From assembly GCA_043781255.1 (NCBI GenBank), contig JAYWBQ010000028.1, forward strand, positions 16,702 to 80,701: a DNA stretch of 64,000 nucleotides, given 5' to 3'. The stretch comes from Minisyncoccota bacterium (lineage in GTDB: Bacteria > Patescibacteriota > Minisyncoccia > Phycocordibacterales > UBA5272). Below the pieces are notes generated by a model. The model saw only the letters and a list, made by a program, of their open reading frames with translations, made no database searches and was not told the origin of the DNA. Positions 864-7,728 of the stretch are shown here, piece by piece. The first letter of the stretch is position 1. Each line of letters starts with the position of its first letter. The position numbers were made by a program, and so were the translations under genes.

Positions 864-1004
864 ATTAATCTACTCTAGCATGTAGAAAGAAGTTGGTCAC
901 GAAGTTACTTTTGCACAAGAAGAGTGGGTTTCAGAACTTTTAAAATCTTGTTCTTCCCTCAAAATCTCAATTAAGATGTTAGAAAAAGTTACCCTACAAA
1001 AGAA

Positions 1005-1595
1005 TTAAACTAATTTATCCTTAATTTTGTTTATTAGGGAAGTCATCTCTTGATTATCTCTTAGGTCAACTTGTGTAATATCAACATCTAAAAAGTTTTT
1101 ATTCATTAAAAAATTTTTGATATTATCCGCAGTTGTCTGTAAGACCTCTTTATTAAGATAAGTATTTTCTAAACTTAAACCTAAATTCCGTTCTTTTGCT
1201 CTTTTCAAGATGACTTCTATATCTCCAGTTAAGTTTAGATATAAGTCTGGTTTTGGAATGAAAGTATTAATTATACTACACGTATTTTTGAACTCAGGAC
1301 ATTCTTCTTCTTTTAACAGAAATTTTGAGTAGATCTCTGTCATTTCAAAGCATGTATCAACAAAAATAAGTTCACTAATAGAATCTTGAGCTTTCTCCAT
1401 TTGATGGTATCTGAGATTAAGAAAACCAATACATTTTTCAAAATTAGAAGCACTACTTTCTCTTTCTTTTGAAATAGAAGAAATTTGATCAAATTTCTCT
1501 TCATAAAAAGGATACTCTAAATTTTCATATATAGATTTTCCTAATGTTGACTTACCAGATCCAGGTATTCCTAATAGACAAATAATTTTTTTCAT
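1005..1595 (-). CDS. P-loop NTPase, deoxynucleoside/nucleoside kinase-like
   Basis: N-terminal Walker A GIPGSGKST. Size (196 aa) and downstream DTCF/ERN-like segments resemble dNK-family kinases. No search done. Confidence 0.5.
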   Translation of the reverse strand: MKKIICLLGIPGSGKSTLGKSIYENLEYPFYEEKFDQISSISKERESSASNFEKCIGFLNLRYHQMEKAQDSISELIFVDTCFEMTEIYSKFLLKEEECPEFKNTCSIINTFIPKPDLYLNLTGDIEVILKRAKERNLGLSLENTYLNKEVLQTTADNIKNFLMNKNFLDVDITQVDLRDNQEMTSLINKIKDKLV

Positions 1596-1601
1596 ACCTG
1601 T

Positions 1602-2345
1602 TTAAAATTTTACTTCTAATAACTCATCATCTGAAAAACTAAATACTTCACCCGTTTTTAACATTTGTGTGGAATGATAATCTTCTTTAATTCCCCCCTC
1701 TGCAATATGCTTAACTATCCGCCCTATCCACCCATGTGTTGATATAAAAACACTATCATTCTTAGTCCATTTTCTAAGTCTTCTTAAGTATGTTAAAAAT
1801 CTTTTAGCTCTAAAGTAAGTATCCTCAGCATTTTCAGTTTTTGATTTTCCTTCATACCACTGCTCAACGTAAAAATCCAAAACTCCCATAAATCCAACTT
1901 TTTCTATTAGGATTTTGTATTCCTCAGAGCTCAGTAAGGTAGTATCAAATTCTACTTCCTTCAAGTACTCACTTTGGATAATTTCAAGATGATTACCAGT
2001 TTTTTCTTCTATGACATTTAGAACTTCTTGAGCTGTCTCAACACAGCGTAAATATGGAGAAGAAATAATAAGTTTTACTTTTTCTAAAACTTCAGTAGAA
2101 AGTTTCTCAACACTTCCCCTAACTTCAACCTTACCGTTTTCAGAAAGTGGTAAGTTTAAAGATTTTGGAACATCAATTGCATTTAGAAAGTCATCAAAAG
2201 GCATTCTATTTGTACCGTAAGTTTCCGGGTCTACTCCAGGACTAGTAACCGGCTTTCCATGTCTAACAAAATGAACATTTTTTATTGATTCTGCAGGAAA
2301 ATTTTCTTGAGTGACATTTAAACTATCTGGATTAGTAGGTTCCAT
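1602..2345 (-). CDS. Histidine phosphatase family protein (phosphoglycerate mutase-like)
   Basis: FVRHGK (RHG catalytic motif) near the N-terminus and a second conserved His in ISTHGW. Confidence 0.6.
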   Translation of the reverse strand: MEPTNPDSLNVTQENFPAESIKNVHFVRHGKPVTSPGVDPETYGTNRMPFDDFLNAIDVPKSLNLPLSENGKVEVRGSVEKLSTEVLEKVKLIISSPYLRCVETAQEVLNVIEEKTGNHLEIIQSEYLKEVEFDTTLLSSEEYKILIEKVGFMGVLDFYVEQWYEGKSKTENAEDTYFRAKRFLTYLRRLRKWTKNDSVFISTHGWIGRIVKHIAEGGIKEDYHSTQMLKTGEVFSFSDDELLEVKF

Positions 2346-2603
2346 AATTCAAAGTATAACATTTACTTAATTAACTAAGCTAGAATACGCAAATTACACC
2401 TAATGAAATAAAAATAGAGACTAATGATTTAGTTTAATTTGACAACCTTTTCCATAAAATGTAACAATGAATATACGGAGTAAGGTCATTTACTTCTGTG
2501 CATTCCCGTAAAGATTGTTTACTAACATGTTGAGTGTTAGTTGTCCTGATTTCCCAAAAGCATAGCTGTACCAGTTGCGGTCATAGAAAGTCCAAAAACT
2601 TCT

Positions 2604-3101
2604 ATGTCTACATCTATCTTAGATGAATTCTTCCTGTGTGATGTTTCTGTAGATCAAAAATCAATAAAGTATTCAATAGACAGAAATAGTACTTATCTAC
2701 TGTCTAGAGAGTTGTTCCTACACTCAAAATCACATGTTGAGTGGTTTTCCGCATTCCCTGATGTATCACTGCACGCTGATTACTCACAGAAGGTTAGAGG
2801 GTCACTTTTCACAGGTATTGTTAAAACACTTTTTCCGGAGGAAAAATTAAGTATTGTATCTGCACATTACCTTTTCCCTTGTCAAACTCTAGCGGAGGAA
2901 CGGAGTGAGTTTTACAAGTGGAAAAGTAGTGTGATAGGTGAAGACATACCAGCCCGTCCTGTTAAAGGGCGGGTATGGTTACACATAGCACGCGGGAAGT
3001 GCGTAAGCGGTACCCAACGGGTACCGAGCAACGCGTATCAACGTTCTGGGTTACTAGTAACACCCAGAGAACGTTGCATGTTGCAACAACACTCCATATG
3101 A
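2604..3101 (+). CDS. Hypothetical protein on the element. The C-terminal part overlaps the inverted-repeat block and may not be coding.
   Basis: 165-aa ORF. Its last ~50 codons run through GC-rich palindromes (2940-3095), so the true product is probably shorter, or the ORF is spurious. Confidence 0.25.
   Translation: MSTSILDEFFLCDVSVDQKSIKYSIDRNSTYLLSRELFLHSKSHVEWFSAFPDVSLHADYSQKVRGSLFTGIVKTLFPEEKLSIVSAHYLFPCQTLAEERSEFYKWKSSVIGEDIPARPVKGRVWLHIARGKCVSGTQRVPSNAYQRSGLLVTPRERCMLQQHSI
2950..3096. repeat. Cluster of inverted repeats; candidate replication origin or recombination site of the element
   Basis: Three inverted repeats: GGTACCCAACGGGTACC (3009-3025), CAACGTTCTGGGTT-ACTAGT-AACACCCAGAGAACGTTG (3039-3076) and TGTTGCAACA (~3078-3087). 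They are GC-rich in an AT-rich element and sit immediately upstream of the putative Rep start at 3098. Confidence 0.45.
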
Positions 3102-4171
3102 TAGACACAATTAAATTCTTTGTGTCTATTCCTGATGTTCAAGTTCTTAATAGAATAAAGAGCATTTCTGAACAAATAAAAAGAGAAGACCTAAAAACAG
3201 GAAAGATAAGATTTGTATTCCACACAACTGAAATAAAAGTAGGTTCTTATAATAAATCAATCAATATAAGGATAACAGACAATCTTTACAACCAAGGATT
3301 ATTCATAGAGCTCTCAATTCCAAAATATGCAAAAGGAAACAATATAGAAATGCTCCTACCCAGAGAGCTCCCACAAATAATAGAAAAATTATCCCAAGAC
3401 ATAACCACCCAACTAGATACCCCACTACCTCATTTTTCTACTTGGGAAATATTTAGATTAGACATTTGTTATAACTGGATATTTAAAACTAAACAAGAAA
3501 CAGAAACAGTAAGGGGTTTTCTTCAAAGAATAGATTATCCAAGAAAGAAGAAAATCCTGTACCCAACATCCGTCATGTTTTTAGGTACTGCTTATCTTAT
3601 TAGATTCTACTTAAAATATCCTGAGTACTTAGTTCATGACTACAAAGATTTACAAGATGAAGACAAAACAAGTGATAGAACATTTAATCTTTTATTCTTT
3701 GCAGAAAGAATTGTTAGATTTGAAGTTGAGTTTAAGAAAAAACATCTTAAAGGGGTTTTTAGATATGACAAAGTATTCATTGTACATATACAAGATGATG
3801 AAAAAATAGAGGAGGAACTCAAGCACTACCTCAATGACAAAGTATTCAAATATGTAACTCTTAAGAATACAACAGATATCAAAGTAGAAGAACTGCTTTA
3901 CAGTAACTTCACAAAAACAAAAGCTACACGTCTTTATCAATTCTACAATGATTTCTATTTAAGTAATGGAGCTATAAAAAATAGAATGCTTAGCGGTGGT
4001 TTAAACAGAAGCACTATTTGGAGGTATAAAACAGATCTTAAAAGTGTTGGTATTGGTTTTGACGTGGTAAGTACTTCTGGCGTCAGTTTACTTGAACAGT
4101 TAGTAATTCCATCTCCAAATTCAAAGTTTGATTTAATTGGTTTTCCTGAAAAAGAAAATGGACATTGTTAA
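3098..4171 (+). CDS. Possible rolling-circle replication initiator (Rep_trans-like); otherwise a hypothetical protein
   Basis: The ORF track starts it at 2975, but codons 1-41 lie in the IR block. The Met at 3098 (MIDTIKFF...) is the more plausible start. The segment KKHLKGVFRYDKVF resembles the Rep_trans R-x-Y-D-K nucleophile region. Weak, unverified. Confidence 0.35.
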   Translation: MIDTIKFFVSIPDVQVLNRIKSISEQIKREDLKTGKIRFVFHTTEIKVGSYNKSINIRITDNLYNQGLFIELSIPKYAKGNNIEMLLPRELPQIIEKLSQDITTQLDTPLPHFSTWEIFRLDICYNWIFKTKQETETVRGFLQRIDYPRKKKILYPTSVMFLGTAYLIRFYLKYPEYLVHDYKDLQDEDKTSDRTFNLLFFAERIVRFEVEFKKKHLKGVFRYDKVFIVHIQDDEKIEEELKHYLNDKVFKYVTLKNTTDIKVEELLYSNFTKTKATRLYQFYNDFYLSNGAIKNRMLSGGLNRSTIWRYKTDLKSVGIGFDVVSTSGVSLLEQLVIPSPNSKFDLIGFPEKENGHC

Positions 4172-4328
4172 AACTTCACAAGAAGAAGTTTTACCTGAAG
4201 AAACCCTACAAACGTTAGAGGCTTTAGGTGAGGTGCTGCTTAGAATTAGGAGAAGGATGTTATCTGAGGGGTTTGACGTGGTAGATGGAAAAGTTGTTAA
4301 AAAGAGTATAATAGACAAAAATGACTGA
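4137..4328 (+). CDS. Small protein translationally coupled to the recombinase; candidate recombination directionality factor or regulator
   Basis: Of the 63 codons, a start at MDIVKT (4158) is likely. Its stop TGA (4326-4328) overlaps the recombinase ATG (4321) in an ATGACTGA arrangement. Confidence 0.3.
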   Translation: MVFLKKKMDIVKTSQEEVLPEETLQTLEALGEVLLRIRRRMLSEGFDVVDGKVVKKSIIDKND

Positions 4329-5991
4329 AGAAGAACTACAAATCTGGAAGGATATTGAGAAAGGTAAGTACTGCAATTACTATTTGATTTACAATAGAAA
4401 AAGTACTGATGAACAAGATAATCAGAAAACTTCTCTTAGACATCAAAAAGAAGAAAATCTTAAATTTGCTCAAAAGAATAATTTACCTATTGCCCCCATT
4501 ACAACACCTACATTTTTTAATAATGGTGTAATATCAGAAAAACATTCTGCATATAAACAAGATGATGATATGGTTTTAAATGATGACGGAACTGTTCAAC
4601 TTAGCGTTGGAAGACCAAAGTTTTTTAAACTGTCACAGTTGTTAAATAAGAAATTATTTAAAGGTGTTATTTTCTTATGTCTTGACAGAGCTAGTAGAAA
4701 TGCGTCTGATAATTTAATCATCAAAAAACTTCAAAAGAATGGTGTAGATATACTCTTTGCTCTTGCTACTTATGATAAGACTAGTGCGGGGAAATTACAC
4801 CAAGATATTGATGGGATGTTTGCGGAACATAAATCAAGAGACACTGCTGAAAAAGTCACAAATACTGGAAAGAAGAATAGAAATGGTGGTGTCTGCACTT
4901 ATAAAGCACCTGTTGGTTATTTAAATCTAGGAACAATGGATAACAAACCATTTGACCCAGTACGTGCTCCATTTATTGTAAAATTTTTTGAACTAGCAGA
5001 TACTGGATGGTCACTTGCGGATATAGCTAGATTTTCTATTGAACAAGGTTTTACAATGCCTCCAATTCGGAAAAGAAGGAGTACTCATCAACTACTTTTA
5101 GATGAAGAAGAAGATGAAGCATCAACTCAACCCAAAGTATGCAACCTTGCTAGATATACCACTATACAAAAGATACTACGCAGTCCTTTTTATACAGGTG
5201 CTGTCCAAAACAAAGAACTTGGGTGGATACCTAGTACAAGTCATAAAGCTCTCATAACAAAAGAAATGTTTGATAGAGTACAAGAAAAACTTACTAAGAA
5301 GAACAGGAGTAAAAAGTATAATGAACCTCTTCCTAATCCATTTAGAGCACAATTCACCTGTGACGGTTGTAGACGCTCCTATACCCCATATTTTAAGAAA
5401 GGACACCTATATTTAGGGTCTAGGTGTGTAGTTGGGTGTTCTAACTCAAACAAGAACTTTAACGTTGATTTTATTACCAAGAACATAAGTAAGGTTGTCA
5501 GTAGTCTTTCTTTCTCTAAGGAGGAAATTGGAGTTATAGATAGTAGGGTTAAAAACTATTTAGAAGTCTTAGAAAAAGACCAAAATAGTAAGGATGAGGA
5601 AAATAAAAATAAGAAGAATAAACTTAGTGAAGATTTAGCATACTTAATAGCAAATAAACTCACCCTTTTAAAGAATGGTGTTTATACTCCTGAAAGTTTG
5701 GTGGTAGAAGAAAAAAAACTGGAAACAGCTATCAGTAACATTTCTAACCTTGAGCATGTTTCAGTAGAAGAAATACAAAAAACAGTACAAAATGTTTATA
5801 AACTTTCAGAACTTCTAAAAGACTTTATTCCTCAATGGGAATTTGCTAATTCTCATGAAAAACAAGATTTACTTAAAATAATGTTTTCAGAACTTTCTAT
5901 TTCTGAGAAAAACCTTAATTATAAGGTTACAAATGGACTTGTTCCCATTCAATCAAGATTTTTCTCTCTTTGTGCCCAGGAAAGGACTTGA
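4321..5991 (+). CDS. Large serine recombinase (resolvase domain, recombinase domain, zinc ribbon, coiled coil)
   Basis: N-terminal YLIYNRKSTDEQ (the Y-x-R-x-S-T-x-x-Q catalytic serine motif). The central region has the large-serine-recombinase layout. Cys cluster CDGCRRS...GSRCVVGC. C-terminal coiled-coil-like segment. The last 19 nt overlap tRNA-Leu. Confidence 0.9.
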   Translation: MTEEELQIWKDIEKGKYCNYYLIYNRKSTDEQDNQKTSLRHQKEENLKFAQKNNLPIAPITTPTFFNNGVISEKHSAYKQDDDMVLNDDGTVQLSVGRPKFFKLSQLLNKKLFKGVIFLCLDRASRNASDNLIIKKLQKNGVDILFALATYDKTSAGKLHQDIDGMFAEHKSRDTAEKVTNTGKKNRNGGVCTYKAPVGYLNLGTMDNKPFDPVRAPFIVKFFELADTGWSLADIARFSIEQGFTMPPIRKRRSTHQLLLDEEEDEASTQPKVCNLARYTTIQKILRSPFYTGAVQNKELGWIPSTSHKALITKEMFDRVQEKLTKKNRSKKYNEPLPNPFRAQFTCDGCRRSYTPYFKKGHLYLGSRCVVGCSNSNKNFNVDFITKNISKVVSSLSFSKEEIGVIDSRVKNYLEVLEKDQNSKDEENKNKKNKLSEDLAYLIANKLTLLKNGVYTPESLVVEEKKLETAISNISNLEHVSVEEIQKTVQNVYKLSELLKDFIPQWEFANSHEKQDLLKIMFSELSISEKNLNYKVTNGLVPIQSRFFSLCAQERT

Positions 5992-6054
5992 ACCTTCACG
6001 CCTTGCGGCATCAGTTCCTAAGACTGATGTGTCTACCAATTTCACCACCTGGGC
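5973..6054 (-). tRNA. tRNA-Leu (anticodon TAG)
   Basis: Hand-folded. Acceptor stem GCCCAGG/CCTGGGC. D-arm GTGAAATTGGTAGACAC. Anticodon loop CTTAGGA. Long variable arm TGCCGCAAGGCGTG. T-arm AAGGTTCAAGTCCTT. Confidence 0.85.
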
Positions 6055-6199
6055 ATTTTTTGAACTTACTCTTTTGTAAGTATTTTCCATTTCCTCTACA
6101 GTAGAAAGATTATAACGTATTTATACTAAATTTGCGAATTTAAGTTTTAATAAAACCAAAGCACAATTTTTACTAATCTTTAGTGGTATACTTAAGAAA

Positions 6200-6805
6200 A
6201 TGAACCCTCAAGATGTAACTATACAAACATATCAGGATAATTTTGAGCTCTACAAAGAAAAGACACCGAGGGTACTATTTGGTGAATTTCTTACACGGAT
6301 GGATTCTTTTATAAATGTGCTTCCTCTACATGGAAAAATATTTGAACTAGGCTCTCTAGAGGGAAGAGATGCACGGTATTTGCGAGACAAGGGTTTCACT
6401 GTCACCTGTACAGATGTCATTCCACAAGCGCTTCAGTCACTAGAAGTAGATGGATTTACAACGTACTTCTATGACCTGAGAGATGAGCCAAAAGAAGAAT
6501 GGAGTAACTTATTTGATGGCATTATTGCAAAAGCCGTCTACCTTCATATGTCGCAGGAAATATTTGAAAAATCTCTCGCTTATATGGGTACGATTTTAAA
6601 AGTGGGAGGTATATTTTGTTTGACTTTTAAGCTGGGGGTTGGTGAGGAAATAGAAACAAGGAAGCTGGGAGGTGAGAGATATTTTAAGTATTACACACAA
6701 AAAGAGCTGGAAGCTATCGTAAAAAAATATCAGTGCTATGAGCTCGTCGATACAGTAACAATAGAAGATAAAAAGTGGATCCAGATTCTTCTGAGGAAGA
6801 AATAA
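6200..6805 (+). CDS. Class I SAM-dependent methyltransferase
   Basis: Motif I-like FELGSLEGRDARYL and the size (201 aa) are typical of small-molecule MTases. Confidence 0.65.
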   Translation: MNPQDVTIQTYQDNFELYKEKTPRVLFGEFLTRMDSFINVLPLHGKIFELGSLEGRDARYLRDKGFTVTCTDVIPQALQSLEVDGFTTYFYDLRDEPKEEWSNLFDGIIAKAVYLHMSQEIFEKSLAYMGTILKVGGIFCLTFKLGVGEEIETRKLGGERYFKYYTQKELEAIVKKYQCYELVDTVTIEDKKWIQILLRKK

Positions 6806-6885: not shown

Positions 6886-7728
6886 TTAGGCTGATGCCAT
6901 CTCGCGTTGCTCGAAGTCAACTTGGTCAACTTGGAACATCGACGAAACGTCGATACCACTCACGGGGACCTTTACGTCATCGTCATCACCAAATTCTGCC
7001 TTATGCTCTTCGTCGACCATTTTCATGGTGATGACGGCATCCATGGGCTGATCAAATGAATCTCGTGTCATTTTCATGAAGTTTTTCTGTACGTTTCGTG
7101 CTTTTGCTTTGGTAATCAACTCTTTCAAGTTGTGCTGCAAAAATGCAAGCATGCCATCCTGAACTTCCCCGATTTTCCCTCGCGTGAAGTTTGCCTTCAC
7201 GTGTTTCTGCAGAAGCCAGGTATGAGGGATGAAAATTCGCTCATGTGCGCCATCCCGGAGGAATGGTTCTTGAATAACCAAGATGTCTTGTGCAGGCTTG
7301 TCCCCATTTTTAGGGAACCAGCGAAGTGTGACAATAAAGTCGTTGGTGACGAACTGGTCATCAGAGTTTCGGCCGAAGACATGGTAGCTACCATGGGTGC
7401 CAATAACCATCTCTTTAAGACGATTTTGCTCCTGTTCAGCAAGAATTTTCTTTGTCTCGGCTTTTGCCTTTGCGGCTAGTGCCTGCTTTTGCTCTTGGTG
7501 AGCTTCTGCACGGTCTTGGTTTCGGTCAAAGTTCGGGATCATACCTTTCACTTCCTTTACCGGCTTGGCCGCTTGTACAGCCGCCTCTTTGGCAGCTTTT
7601 TTGTCAGCGAGAGTCGTTTTCTTTATCTGCTTAGTCATCGAGTACTCCAGTTGATGCCTGTTAGGGCTATAACAATTTAAAAGGACATGACCATGTAAAA
7701 GTACAGGGTCAAGATATATTATACACAA
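6886..7728 (-). CDS. Hypothetical protein with a Lys/Ala-rich N-terminal tail (possible nucleic-acid binding)
   Basis: Likely true start at 7638 (MTKQIKK...), which has a GGAG 8 nt upstream. The tail ADKKAAKEAAVQAAKPVKEVKG is histone-H1-like low complexity. The globular part matches no family I recognise. GC is higher than in neighbouring genes. Confidence 0.5.
   Translation of the reverse strand: MCIIYLDPVLLHGHVLLNCYSPNRHQLEYSMTKQIKKTTLADKKAAKEAAVQAAKPVKEVKGMIPNFDRNQDRAEAHQEQKQALAAKAKAETKKILAEQEQNRLKEMVIGTHGSYHVFGRNSDDQFVTNDFIVTLRWFPKNGDKPAQDILVIQEPFLRDGAHERIFIPHTWLLQKHVKANFTRGKIGEVQDGMLAFLQHNLKELITKAKARNVQKNFMKMTRDSFDQPMDAVITMKMVDEEHKAEFGDDDDVKVPVSGIDVSSMFQVDQVDFEQREMASA

What the first reader, a model, noticed from the sequence alone, without database searches (positions are those of the whole stretch)
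2346..6054. Compact (~3.6 kb) integrative replicon at tRNA-Leu: serine recombinase overlapping the tRNA, a coupled small ORF, a Rep-like protein and an IR-rich origin candidate
The element has the architecture of a minimal integrative plasmid-like element that can excise and replicate.

- **Recombinase.** The 556-aa large serine recombinase (catalytic YNRKSTDEQ) terminates 19 nt inside the 3' end of tRNA-Leu(TAG). This is typical of attB capture.
- **Coupled small ORF.** Immediately upstream is a translationally coupled 56-63-aa ORF. It is a candidate recombination directionality factor.
- **Rep-like protein.** A 357-398-aa protein has an R-Y-D-K segment reminiscent of Rep_trans rolling-circle initiators.
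- **Origin candidate.** A dense block of GC-rich inverted repeats (2950-3096) lies in an otherwise AT-rich region.
- **Promoter-like site.** At the left edge, a sequence (TTGACA, 17 nt, TGnTAACAA) at ~2444-2480 points into the element.

Elements of this kind are poorly described in reduced-genome lineages.
Basis: partly seen in the sequence, partly recalled or inferred. Interest (0 to 1): 0.6.

Follow-up and report, generated by a model that had tools for sequence, protein, structure and literature searches.

The report
Small self-replicating integrative element in tRNA-Leu
A 5.06-kb mobile element sits in the 3' end of a tRNA-Leu gene of a Patescibacteria (CPR) genome, carrying a rolling-circle replication gene, a conserved origin hairpin and a serine integrase whose gene is split by integration; it belongs to a widespread family I found no description of, in a group with few known mobile elements.

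Summary
Its reading, an integrative replicon, holds in kind, but the element is larger than it thought.

- **Recombinase.** The 556-aa large serine recombinase (LSR) ends 20 nt inside tRNA-Leu(tag).
- **Family.** Twenty-one relatives show Rep, then LSR, then a convergent tRNA. Twelve tRNA species are used, the cargo varies and LSR modules are swapped.
- **Empty sites.** Two more distant relatives have the tRNA 10-19 nt from RluA. The window has 5.1 kb there.
- **Boundaries.** The left end is at 925, not 2346. attL is 909-924 and attR is 5970-5985. The element is 5,061 bp and includes a deoxynucleoside-kinase-like gene and a histidine phosphatase gene as cargo.
- **Split integrase gene.** Read across 5985|925, the LSR frame gains a 27-residue tail that matches the native C-terminus of full-length homologues. 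The gene therefore spans attP.
- **Origin.** A hairpin with invariant GTAACACC precedes Rep in all 26 loci, and its stem covaries.
- **Corrections.** The R-Y-D-K segment is not conserved, and the called 165-aa ORF shows no coding signature.

Excision, nicking and replication are inferred, not shown. I rate it a new variant of a known kind.

The parts
909..924 (.). attL core: decayed copy of the displaced tRNA-Leu 3' end (TTTTGCACAAGAAGAG)
   Evidence: It aligns with the attR core at 5970-5985. The better-preserved copies in relatives are L043 TTGTGCCCAAGAAGGG and L046 TTGTGCACAAGGAGAG. Within the window alone the match is not above chance.
925..1008 (+). P' arm of attP plus the detached 3' end of the recombinase gene (tail WVSELLKSCSSLKISIKMLEKVTLQKN*); right inverted-repeat arm AAAATCTTG at 942-950
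   Evidence: The open frame continues from 5985 in the window, L043, L046 and L021. An ungapped BLASTP alignment to the C-terminus of full-length homologue P0173 crosses the junction. This is the only left-side stretch conserved between relatives.
1005..1595 (-). Cargo: deoxynucleoside/nucleotide kinase-like protein (196 aa)
   Evidence: PF01712 E 1.9e-8 and AAA_28; phrog_761 E 6e-17. It lies between attL and the conserved core and sits in the low-GC tract. Relatives carry other genes at this position.
1602..2345 (-). Cargo: histidine phosphatase superfamily protein (247 aa)
   Evidence: PF00300 E 1.3e-9. Same positional argument as for the kinase.
2396..2438 (+). Remnant of the 3' end of an HTH_3 regulator gene that is intact in relatives
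   Evidence: It aligns with the 3' end of the 74-aa HTH_3 genes of L043 and L046, up to their stop codon.
2439..2468 (+). Promoter-like site TTGACA-18-(TG)tAACAAT reading into leader, rep, small ORF and recombinase
   Evidence: Consensus scan, 10 of 12 matches with an extended -10. The block is invariant in L043, L046 and L021 while the flanks vary.
2604..3101 (+). Called 165-aa ORF; probably not a selected protein, so treated as leader/origin DNA
   Evidence: Substitutions against three relatives are spread evenly over codon positions (22/22/22, 23/30/31, 10/12/13). Rep gives 29/32/85. No family hit. Only 19 homologue clusters, with the best conservation over the hairpin region. Against this, the frame stays open in several relatives.
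2945..3026 (.). GC-rich hairpins (about 2945-2978 and 3008-3026): candidate single-strand origin or Rep-binding region
   Evidence: ssDNA fold z = -5.1. Stems covary in relatives: GGTACCCAACGGGTACC, GGTGCCCACTGGGCACC, CGACACCCAACAGGTGTCG, CGATACCCAAAGGGTATCG.
3039..3087 (+). Candidate double-strand origin: hairpin 3039-3076 with invariant GTAACACC (3057-3064), then palindrome GTTGCA-TGT-TGCAAC (3073-3087), 10 nt before the rep ATG
   Evidence: Present in all 26 loci. Every copy folds as a DNA hairpin, -7.7 to -14.4 kcal/mol. Stem positions 1-5 outside the invariant core pair in 19-22 of 22 distinct sequences, with 2-4 pair types each.
3098..4171 (+). Rep: gene II / Phage_CRI-family rolling-circle initiator (357 aa)
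4158..4328 (+). Small ORF (56 aa) overlapping both neighbours; function unknown (candidate directionality factor or regulator)
   Evidence: Conserved in L043, L046 and L048. Third-position excess 3/2/17 and 12/5/23. No family hits. Absent from the more distant family members, where the recombinase match begins within about 10-45 nt of the end of Rep.
4321..5991 (+). Large serine recombinase, integrated (truncated) form, 556 aa; last codon and stop come from the tRNA T-loop
   Evidence: PF00239 and PF07508; phrog_95 E 1.6e-52; motifs at residues 24, 121, 347 and 369; third-position excess 109/80/195.
5954..5985 (.). P arm of attP, including left inverted-repeat arm CAAGATTTT (5954-5962) and attR core TTGTGCCCAGGAAAGG (5970-5985), which supplies the last 13-14 nt of the tRNA
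   Evidence: Joining 5954-5985 to 925-950 gives a 58-bp site with 9-bp perfect terminal inverted repeats, centred at about 5982-5983. The mimic is adapted to other tRNA-Leu genes in L021 and L048.
5972..6054 (-). tRNA-Leu(tag), the integration target; its 3' end is rebuilt by the element
   Evidence: ARAGORN and Rfam 58.6 bits. The acceptor stem GCCCAGG/CCTGGGC pairs perfectly. The same tRNA lies 10-19 nt from RluA in L056 and L057.

Best explanation
Window 925-5985 is an integrated copy of a small integrative rolling-circle replicon. It belongs to a family spread across Patescibacteria.

**Integration (inferred).** The large serine recombinase joins a roughly 58-bp attP to the 3' end of tRNA-Leu(tag). 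The attP lies inside the 3' end of the recombinase's own gene. Its P arm copies the last 13-14 nt of the tRNA, so the tRNA stays intact. The displaced original end remains at attL (909-924). Integration also separates the last 27 codons of the recombinase gene (now at 925-1008) from the rest. The integrated gene ends with one codon and a stop taken from the tRNA T-loop.

**Replication (inferred).** A conserved promoter (2439-2468) drives leader, rep, small ORF and recombinase. After excision the full-length recombinase gene is restored. Rep would nick the conserved hairpin origin (3039-3076, invariant GTAACACC) and start rolling-circle replication. The GC-rich hairpins upstream are candidates for lagging-strand initiation or Rep binding.

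**Cargo.** The stretch between attL and the promoter is a variable slot. Here it holds a deoxynucleoside-kinase-like gene and a histidine phosphatase gene.

**Shown:** gene identities, Rep fold, family architecture, target diversity, empty sites in relatives, origin covariation and the split recombinase reading frame.
**Inferred:** excision, nicking, replication, the role of the small ORF and the route of cell-to-cell transfer.
For: - **Rep.** PF05144 above its cut-off and phrog_702. Predicted fold closest to Rep_trans rolling-circle initiators. Nearest annotated relatives are the Rep of a 3.5-kb cyanobacterial plasmid and inovirus Reps.
- **Recombinase.** Resolvase and Recombinase domains with the catalytic motif intact.
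- **Family.** All 21 loci tabulated with a nearby tRNA show Rep, recombinase and a convergent tRNA. The recombinase ORF runs into the tRNA in 18 of the 21, and 12 tRNA species are used.
- **Module swap.** L045 has a Rep 89% identical to the window's but a different 519-aa recombinase, at tRNA-Val.
- **Retargeting.** Close relatives sit at other tRNA-Leu genes with the tRNA mimic adapted to match.
- **Cargo.** It differs between copies.
- **Empty sites.** L056 and L057 have tRNA-Leu(tag) 10-19 nt upstream of RluA in the window's orientation. Five other relatives have this tRNA without Rep or recombinase.
- **Left end.** A conserved left-end segment, low GC across about 900-6000, and the recombinase frame continuing across 5985|925 into a tail that matches full-length homologues.
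- **Origin.** The hairpin is conserved and covaries in 26 loci, and the block is more structured than chance.
- **Selection.** Rep, the small ORF and the recombinase all show third-position substitution excess.
Against: - **No circular form.** No circular contig or attP junction was found. Small contigs carrying Rep are chromosome fragments with no terminal overlap.
- **No same-species empty site.** Every contig carrying the identical flanking phosphatase also carries the element. It may be fixed in this population.
- **Signs of decay.** The window's attL core is decayed: 11 of 16 positions match attR, against 14 of 16 in L043. The host terminator seen in relatives is missing. The HTH regulator present in the closest relatives is reduced to a stub. 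This copy may be immobile.
- **Palindromes are ambiguous.** The covarying palindrome could equally be a binding site for a dimeric protein on duplex DNA rather than an extruded hairpin.
- **Weaker hits.** TIGR01629 (rep_II_X) scores below its cut-off, 20.7 against 29. The Zn-ribbon domain PF13408 is not detected in this recombinase.
- **No transfer machinery.** None is encoded.
Confidence: 0.78

Rival explanations
1. It is a decayed filamentous-phage (inovirus-like) prophage, or a satellite that relies on a filamentous helper phage for packaging and export. Only the replication and integration modules are kept.
For: Rep belongs to the gene II family used by inoviruses, and the nearest phage hits are filamentous phages. 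The Ralstonia inoviruses phiRSM1/3 integrate through a serine recombinase into a 13-nt 3' end of tRNA-Ser (PMC3816273). A rolling-circle plasmid acting as an inovirus satellite has been reported (bioRxiv 10.1101/2023.11.28.569023, title and abstract listed).
Against: None of the loci inspected carries a Zot/pI-like ATPase, coat protein or ssDNA-binding gene. The slot next to the core holds defence or metabolic genes on the opposite strand. No relative was found in 2.9 million IMG/VR viral contigs. The compact layout is conserved across deep divergence (Rep 40-50% identity), which is not what random decay gives. A satellite lifestyle cannot be excluded.
Confidence: 0.1
2. It is an integrative mobilizable element. 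The Rep-fold protein acts mainly as a relaxase at an origin of transfer (as MOBT relaxases do in Firmicutes). The hairpin is then an oriT rather than a replication origin.
For: The Rep_trans fold is shared with MOBT relaxases, according to the titles and abstracts of PMC6499999 and PMC9371924 listed. Firmicute elements of this kind combine such proteins with serine integrases (PMC5704250, title and abstract listed). Full-length homologues of this recombinase sit next to TrwB/VirD4-type coupling proteins in other elements.
Against: No coupling protein or type IV secretion gene was seen in any of the 26 Rep-bearing loci. The closest sequence families are replication initiators of phages and small plasmids. 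The position of the hairpin just upstream of rep is typical of rolling-circle plasmid origins (established knowledge, not tested here).
Confidence: 0.08
3. This copy is a fixed, no longer mobile relic. Rep and the recombinase persist for a host-level role or simply have not yet decayed.
For: The element is present in every contig sharing the identical flank. The attL core has decayed, and the host terminator and the HTH regulator are lost. A clearly decayed sister copy exists in L021, where Rep residues 1-175 are fused to recombinase residues 448-556.
Against: Rep, the small ORF and the recombinase are intact and under purifying selection. The detached recombinase tail is still an open frame. 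The promoter and origin are intact. This rival concerns present activity only and is compatible with the best explanation for origin and mechanism.
Confidence: 0.25

Closest known systems
phiRSM1/phiRSM3 filamentous phages of Ralstonia solanacearum (PMC3816273)
   Same: They carry a gene II-type Rep (the nearest phage-type hits to this Rep are Ralstonia inovirus prophages, 22.5% identity). A self-encoded serine recombinase integrates them. The attP/attB core is the last 13 nt of a tRNA in reverse orientation, as here (13-14 nt of tRNA-Leu).
   Different: phiRSM uses a small resolvase/invertase-type recombinase, not a large serine recombinase. Its attP lies between genes, not inside the recombinase gene. 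It carries the full inovirus structural and assembly module, which is absent here.
Actinomycete integrative and conjugative elements (pSAM2 type), including Mycobacterium elements with serine recombinases at tRNA-Leu (PMC3218068, PMC2440964)
   Same: They integrate in tRNA genes, excise, and replicate by rolling circle through a self-encoded Rep before transfer. Some use serine recombinases targeting tRNA-Leu. PMC3218068 calls serine-recombinase integration into tRNA genes rare.
   Different: They are 9-24 kb in size (my recollection, not checked here). Their Rep is of the RepSA (phiX174/pC194-like) type. They encode an FtsK-like transfer protein. They occur in Actinobacteria. No transfer gene is present here.
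Small rolling-circle plasmids with gene II / Rep_trans-fold initiators (e.g. pRIV7116.02 of Rivularia, 3.5 kb; pT181 family)
   Same: The Rep is homologous (26% identity, E 1e-18 to pRIV7116.02). The fold matches 4cij and 4cwc. The size is similar and a hairpin origin lies next to rep.
   Different: Those plasmids have no integrase and are not known to integrate.
Integrative mobilizable elements of Firmicutes with serine integrases and Rep_trans-related MOBT relaxases (PMC5704250, PMC5357655)
   Same: They are compact integrated elements that combine a serine integrase with a Rep-fold DNA-processing protein and a small cargo.
   Different: They depend on helper conjugative elements. Their Rep-like protein is a relaxase. 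They mostly target protein-coding genes. No conjugation genes were seen near this family.
SSV-type integrases of archaeal fuselloviruses (own knowledge, not checked here)
   Same: The integrase gene contains attP, so integration into a tRNA gene splits the integrase gene.
   Different: Those are tyrosine recombinases of archaeal viruses and the gene is cut into two large parts. Here a serine recombinase loses only its last 27 residues.
Tycheposons of Prochlorococcus (own knowledge, not checked here)
   Same: They are small cargo-carrying elements in streamlined genomes that integrate at tRNA genes and leave arrays of partial tRNA copies.
   Different: They use mostly tyrosine recombinases, different replication modules and a different host group.

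Membership tests
Large serine recombinase (serine integrase) | N-terminal resolvase-type catalytic domain with a serine nucleophile | tested here: met
   PF00239 E 2.3e-13. YNRKSTDEQ at residues 24-32 and LDRASRN at 121. An insertion separates the serine motif from the rest of the domain (the Pfam match covers residues 86-187 only).
Large serine recombinase (serine integrase) | Recombinase domain (PF07508) following the catalytic domain | tested here: met
   PF07508 E 2.9e-12, residues 214-326. phrog_95 'integrase' E 1.6e-52.
Large serine recombinase (serine integrase) | Zinc-ribbon domain (PF13408) with an embedded coiled coil | tested here: inconclusive
   No PF13408 hit at E <= 0.1. Cysteine pairs CDGC (347) and CVVGC (369) are in the expected place. 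The alternative recombinase of L008 and L045 does hit PF13408. The coiled coil was not tested.
Large serine recombinase (serine integrase) | attP and attB of about 40-60 bp with imperfect dyad symmetry and a short common core; no long direct repeats | tested here: inconclusive
   The reconstructed 58-bp attP has 9-bp perfect terminal inverted repeats. The attL and attR cores of 16 bp match only imperfectly (11 of 16 in the window). The crossover dinucleotide is not determined.
Gene II / Phage_CRI rolling-circle initiators (PF05144) | Sequence match to the family model above the curated threshold | tested here: met
   PF05144 at 41.8 bits against a cut-off of 21.7, covering model positions 1-219 of 232. 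phrog_702 E 1.5e-19. The narrower NCBIfam TIGR01629 is below its cut-off, 20.7 against 29.
Gene II / Phage_CRI rolling-circle initiators (PF05144) | Catalytic tyrosine and metal-binding residues | tested here: inconclusive
Invariant Y125, Y166, Y171, E71, D122, R207 and E209 in 15 sequences. None was mapped onto a known active site.
Gene II / Phage_CRI rolling-circle initiators (PF05144) | Cognate origin with a nick site next to rep | tested here: met
   A conserved, covarying hairpin with invariant GTAACACC is found upstream of rep in 26 of 26 loci. The nick site itself cannot be tested with these tools.
Rep_trans (PF02486) initiators | Sequence match to PF02486 | tested here: not met
Inovirus (filamentous phage) prophage | Morphogenesis ATPase (pI/Zot), coat proteins and an ssDNA-binding protein downstream of rep | tested here: not met
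   No such genes in the window element or in the relatives inspected. No relative in IMG/VR. A genuine inovirus prophage is shown for contrast.
Actinomycete integrative and conjugative elements | FtsK-like DNA translocase for transfer | tested here: not met
   None in the window element. L024 carries only a 110-aa protein with an FtsK gamma domain.
Integrative mobilizable element | oriT with relaxase, and dependence on a helper conjugative system | not testable with these tools
   No conjugation genes lie near any Rep-bearing locus. Function as a relaxase cannot be ruled out from sequence.

The most novel reading that the evidence does not exclude
Patescibacteria carry a phylum-wide family of minimal integrative rolling-circle replicons that I found no description of. 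Their serine integrase gene spans attP, so integration and excision switch the enzyme between a truncated form and a full-length form with a C-terminal helix. That switch could be a built-in control of recombination direction. The family may also mobilise 150-170-nt miniature elements found at the same tRNA 3' ends. Together they would move defence and nucleotide-salvage genes between these reduced genomes.
Probability: 0.3. Interest if true: 0.75.

Novelty: new variant of a known kind. Interest (0 to 1): 0.6.

Why it matters
- **A gap in CPR biology.** Few mobile elements are described for Patescibacteria. A 2025 groundwater plasmid survey states that plasmids have rarely been studied in CPR bacteria (PMC12023590).
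- **A possible genetic tool.** The family provides a native replicon (Rep plus a defined origin) and a site-specific integrase with predictable tRNA targets. Both are useful starting points for genetic tools in organisms that are hard to manipulate.
- **A route for gene flow.** The variable cargo includes nuclease-like DUF2726 proteins, a methyltransferase with a GmrSD/HNH nuclease, a peptidase and, here, nucleotide-salvage-type enzymes. This points to gene exchange in very small genomes.
- **A testable mechanism.** A serine integrase gene that is split by its own integration is a clear hypothesis about how recombination direction could be controlled.

Tried and rejected
- **Repeats within the window.** A search over 2200-6300 found no significant direct repeats at the ends. 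A seed search with the tRNA 3' end gave only chance-level matches. attL was recognised only through relatives.
- **Circular free forms.** Small Rep contigs are chromosome fragments (L007, 4025 nt; L048, 3382 nt). None of 12 short loci has a terminal overlap.
- **Viral contigs.** IMG/VR holds no relative of Rep.
- **PDB by sequence.** Only chance-level staphylococcal nuclease hits, E >= 0.04. The fold search was needed.
- **Rfam.** Nothing in the leader/origin region 2350-3150, and nothing meaningful in the mini-insert.
- **R-Y-D-K as catalytic motif.** Rejected because the column is variable.
- **The 165-aa ORF as a protein component.** Rejected as unsupported because it shows no codon-position signature. 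Its persistently open frame remains unexplained.
- **Contig breaks at the tRNA as evidence of polymorphism.** Considered but not used, because conserved tRNA sequence alone can break metagenome assemblies.
- **L049 as a simple empty site.** Rejected. Its tRNA is inverted relative to RluA and carries a mini-insert. L056 and L057 serve instead.
- **Literature.** Four searches found no description of this family.

Full report
**1. The observation**

All reported features are present.
- ORF 4321-5991 (+) encodes a 556-aa protein with Resolvase (PF00239, E 2.3e-13) and Recombinase (PF07508, E 2.9e-12) domains. The motifs YNRKSTDEQ (residues 24-32) and LDRASRN (121) are intact.
- tRNA-Leu(tag) lies at 5972-6054 on the minus strand. 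The ORF, including its stop, overlaps the tRNA 3' end by 20 nt.
- A 56-aa ORF (ATG 4158; 63 aa from TTG 4137) overlaps both neighbours.
- The Rep-like ORF is best read from the ATG at 3098 (357 aa). That is where gene callers and all homologues start.
- The inverted-repeat block 2940-3100 folds as single-stranded DNA at -37.2 kcal/mol, against -20.8 +/- 3.2 for shuffles (z -5.1).
- A promoter-like site, TTGACA-18-(TG)tAACAAT, lies at 2439-2468.

**2. The proteins**

- **Nearest annotated Rep relatives.** These are the Rep of the 3.5-kb Rivularia plasmid pRIV7116.02 (26% identity, E 1e-18) and Reps of filamentous phages and prophages (22.5%).
- **The R-Y-D-K clue.** The invariant residues include Y125, Y166, Y171, E71, D122, R207 and E209.
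- **Selection.** Substitutions against relatives concentrate at third codon positions in Rep (29/32/85), the small ORF (3/2/17) and the recombinase (109/80/195). All three are under purifying selection.
- **The called 165-aa ORF (2604-3101).** It shows no such pattern (22/22/22, 23/30/31, 10/12/13), has no family hit, and is best conserved where it overlaps the hairpins. I treat it as leader/origin DNA. Its frame does stay open in several relatives, which I cannot explain.

**3. A family, not a single locus**

- Rep has 153 homologue clusters, all carrying PF05144 where annotated. One is labelled Patescibacteria by NCBI.
- A scan of one genome per species returned 22 loci in Patescibacteria genomes assembled from metagenomes, labelled Paceibacterota, 'Saccharibacteria' or Taylorbacteria.
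- Across the window and its relatives, all 21 loci tabulated with a nearby tRNA show Rep, then a serine recombinase, then a convergent tRNA. The recombinase reading frame runs into the tRNA 3' end in 18 of the 21.
- Twelve tRNA species are used: Leu-tag, Leu-caa, Val-gac, Val-cac, Ile-gat, Gly-ccc, Gln-ctg, Ser-gga, Ser-tga, Ser-cga, Lys-ttt and Trp-cca.
- L045 has a Rep 89% identical to the window's but a different 519-aa recombinase, at tRNA-Val(gac). L008 is the same type.
- Close relatives L021 and L048 sit at other tRNA-Leu genes, and the last 13-14 nt before the crossover are changed to match each tRNA.
- These patterns fit a modular mobile element, not a conserved core gene.

**4. True extent**

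- In the closest relatives (L043/L044, Rep 85%; L046/L047, 75%) the conserved core is preceded by an HTH_3 gene and two DUF2726 genes.
- DNA comparison shows core homology with the window starting at about 2400. It also shows a separate conserved 70-85-nt segment at window 905-989, immediately right of RluA.
- That segment begins with a degenerate copy of the tRNA 3' end: window 909-924 TTTTGCACAAGAAGAG, L043 TTGTGCCCAAGAAGGG, and attR at 5970-5985 TTGTGCCCAGGAAAGG.
- The kinase-like gene (1005-1595) and the histidine phosphatase gene (1602-2345) therefore lie inside the element. They occupy the slot that holds other cargo elsewhere: DUF2726 x2 with HTH; an EcoRI-like methyltransferase with a GmrSD/HNH nuclease; or Peptidase_S51.
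- The low-GC tract from about 900 to 6000 agrees.
- The window keeps only the last 45 nt or so of the HTH gene, just before the promoter. The promoter is invariant in L043, L046 and L021.

**5. Empty sites**

- Loci anchored on RluA include L056 and L057, whose RluA is 59% and 54% identical to the window's. There tRNA-Leu(tag) lies 10-19 nt upstream of RluA on the same strand, with RbfA in the same neighbourhood. In the window the gap is 5.1 kb.
- L049 (RluA 81%), L050 and L053-L055 carry this tRNA without Rep or recombinase.
- L052 has a 50%-identical recombinase and small ORF at the same tRNA.
- No empty site was seen in the window's own population.

**6. The recombinase gene spans attP**

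- Reading the recombinase frame from 5985 directly into 925 gives WVSELLKSCSSLKISIKMLEKVTLQKN*. The same continuation is open in L043, L046 and L021, with stops at similar positions.
- Full-length homologues of 584-595 aa end in the same motif, for example ...GWLSELLKQREDITTSIRELELLL in P0173. BLASTP aligns the reconstructed sequence to P0173 without gaps across the junction.
- Integration thus replaces the last 27 residues with a single threonine and a stop taken from the tRNA T-loop.
- This independently fixes the left boundary at 925 and the element length at 5,061 bp.
- Joining 5954-5985 to 925-950 gives a 58-bp attP with perfect 9-bp terminal inverted repeats (CAAGATTTT / AAAATCTTG), centred at about 5982-5983. 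Both arms change in parallel in L046.
- Any effect of the tail on recombination direction is speculation.

**7. Origin**

- In all 26 loci, a hairpin with invariant GTAACACC lies 8-30 nt before the rep ATG. It is followed by (A/T)ACGTTGCA-N3-TGCAAC.
- Each copy folds as DNA at -7.7 to -14.4 kcal/mol.
- The five stem positions outside the invariant core pair in 19-22 of 22 distinct sequences, with two to four pair types each. For example, CAACGTTC...GAACGTTG in the window becomes CAACATTC...GAATGTTG in L046.
- In the window the hairpin is 3039-3076 and the second palindrome is 3073-3087.
- The GC-rich hairpins upstream (about 2945-2978 and 3008-3026) also covary. They are candidates for a single-strand origin or Rep binding.
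- Covarying palindromes do not distinguish an extruded hairpin from a dimer-binding site. The nick site is unknown.

**8. Comparison with known systems**

- **phiRSM phages.** They pair a gene II-type Rep with a serine recombinase and a 13-nt tRNA 3'-end core (PMC3816273). They are complete inoviruses with a small recombinase.
- **Actinomycete integrative conjugative elements.** They integrate in tRNAs and replicate by rolling circle. Some Mycobacterium members use serine recombinases at tRNA-Leu. [quoted passage not shown]
- **This family.** No structural, assembly or transfer gene occurs in it, and IMG/VR holds no relative.
- **Literature.** Four searches found no description of the family. 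A 2025 survey states that CPR plasmids are little studied.

**9. Verdict**

The locus is an integrated member of a compact Rep-plus-serine-integrase replicon family of Patescibacteria. I rate it a new variant of a known kind.
- **Shown:** components, family architecture, boundaries, empty sites in relatives, origin covariation and the split integrase gene.
- **Inferred:** excision, nicking, replication, the role of the small ORF and the transfer route.
- **Caveat:** the decayed attL core, the lost regulator and apparent fixation leave open that this particular copy no longer moves.

Noticed in passing
L049:7690-7860; also L050, L053-L055, L043:5480-5775, L046:5480-5806, L021:2566-2742, L024:650-830; stub at window 864-908: Units of 150-170 nt sit at the same tRNA 3' ends, one to three in tandem. 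Each has a 19-21-nt copy of the tRNA 3' end, a conserved GGTCAC...hairpin...GCGACC core, a sense-oriented tRNA T-arm/acceptor-like piece adapted to the local tRNA (Leu or Gln), and a terminator-like hairpin. They occur in genomes with and without Rep and recombinase. No Rfam family matches. They could be non-autonomous mini-elements or recombination footprints.
   Followed up: partly
L049, L050, L052-L055 compared with window, L043, L056, L057: tRNA-Leu(tag) is inverted relative to the conserved RbfA...RluA frame in one group of relatives but not in the other. The segment holding the tRNA and its insertions has flipped at least once.
   Followed up: partly
window 5972-6079 (ends of L002, L003, L004, L031-L038): In many independent assemblies, contigs end or start inside or at the edge of tRNA-Leu. 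This could reflect strain heterogeneity at the site, or only the usual assembly breaks at conserved tRNA sequence.
   Followed up: no
window 5934-5947 and the same position in L021, L046, L048: A second T-arm-like motif (A)TGGACTTGTTCC / AAAGGACTTG(A/T)(A/T)CC lies inside the recombinase coding sequence, about 25-40 nt upstream of the tRNA-mimic core. It is conserved in relatives. Its significance is unknown.
   Followed up: no
window 6886-7728 (-): An ORF with no family hit sits in a GC-rich patch (0.46-0.48). Its called length varies between strains that carry the identical neighbouring gene: 218, 250, 280 and 294 aa.
   Followed up: no
L028:10875-11453 (-): A second recombinase fragment, 40% identical to the C-terminal third of the window's enzyme, lies on the far side of an adjacent tRNA-Glu. 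Two elements may be back to back at neighbouring tRNAs.
   Followed up: no
L011 (JADGRH010000002.1): Rep and a recombinase match are present, but no tRNA is found within the 17-kb locus. This is a possible exception to tRNA targeting.
   Followed up: no
L131, L133: Full-length (587-588 aa) homologues of the recombinase sit next to TrwB/VirD4-type coupling proteins, RadC and ArdC-like genes. These are conjugative-element-like contexts without a Phage_CRI Rep.
   Followed up: partly
window Rep residues about 296-316 (nt about 3983-4045): The conserved C-terminal segment GGLNRSTIWRYKTDLKSVGIG resembles a resolvase-type helix-turn-helix and is helical in the model. It is a possible DNA-binding module of Rep.
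   Followed up: no
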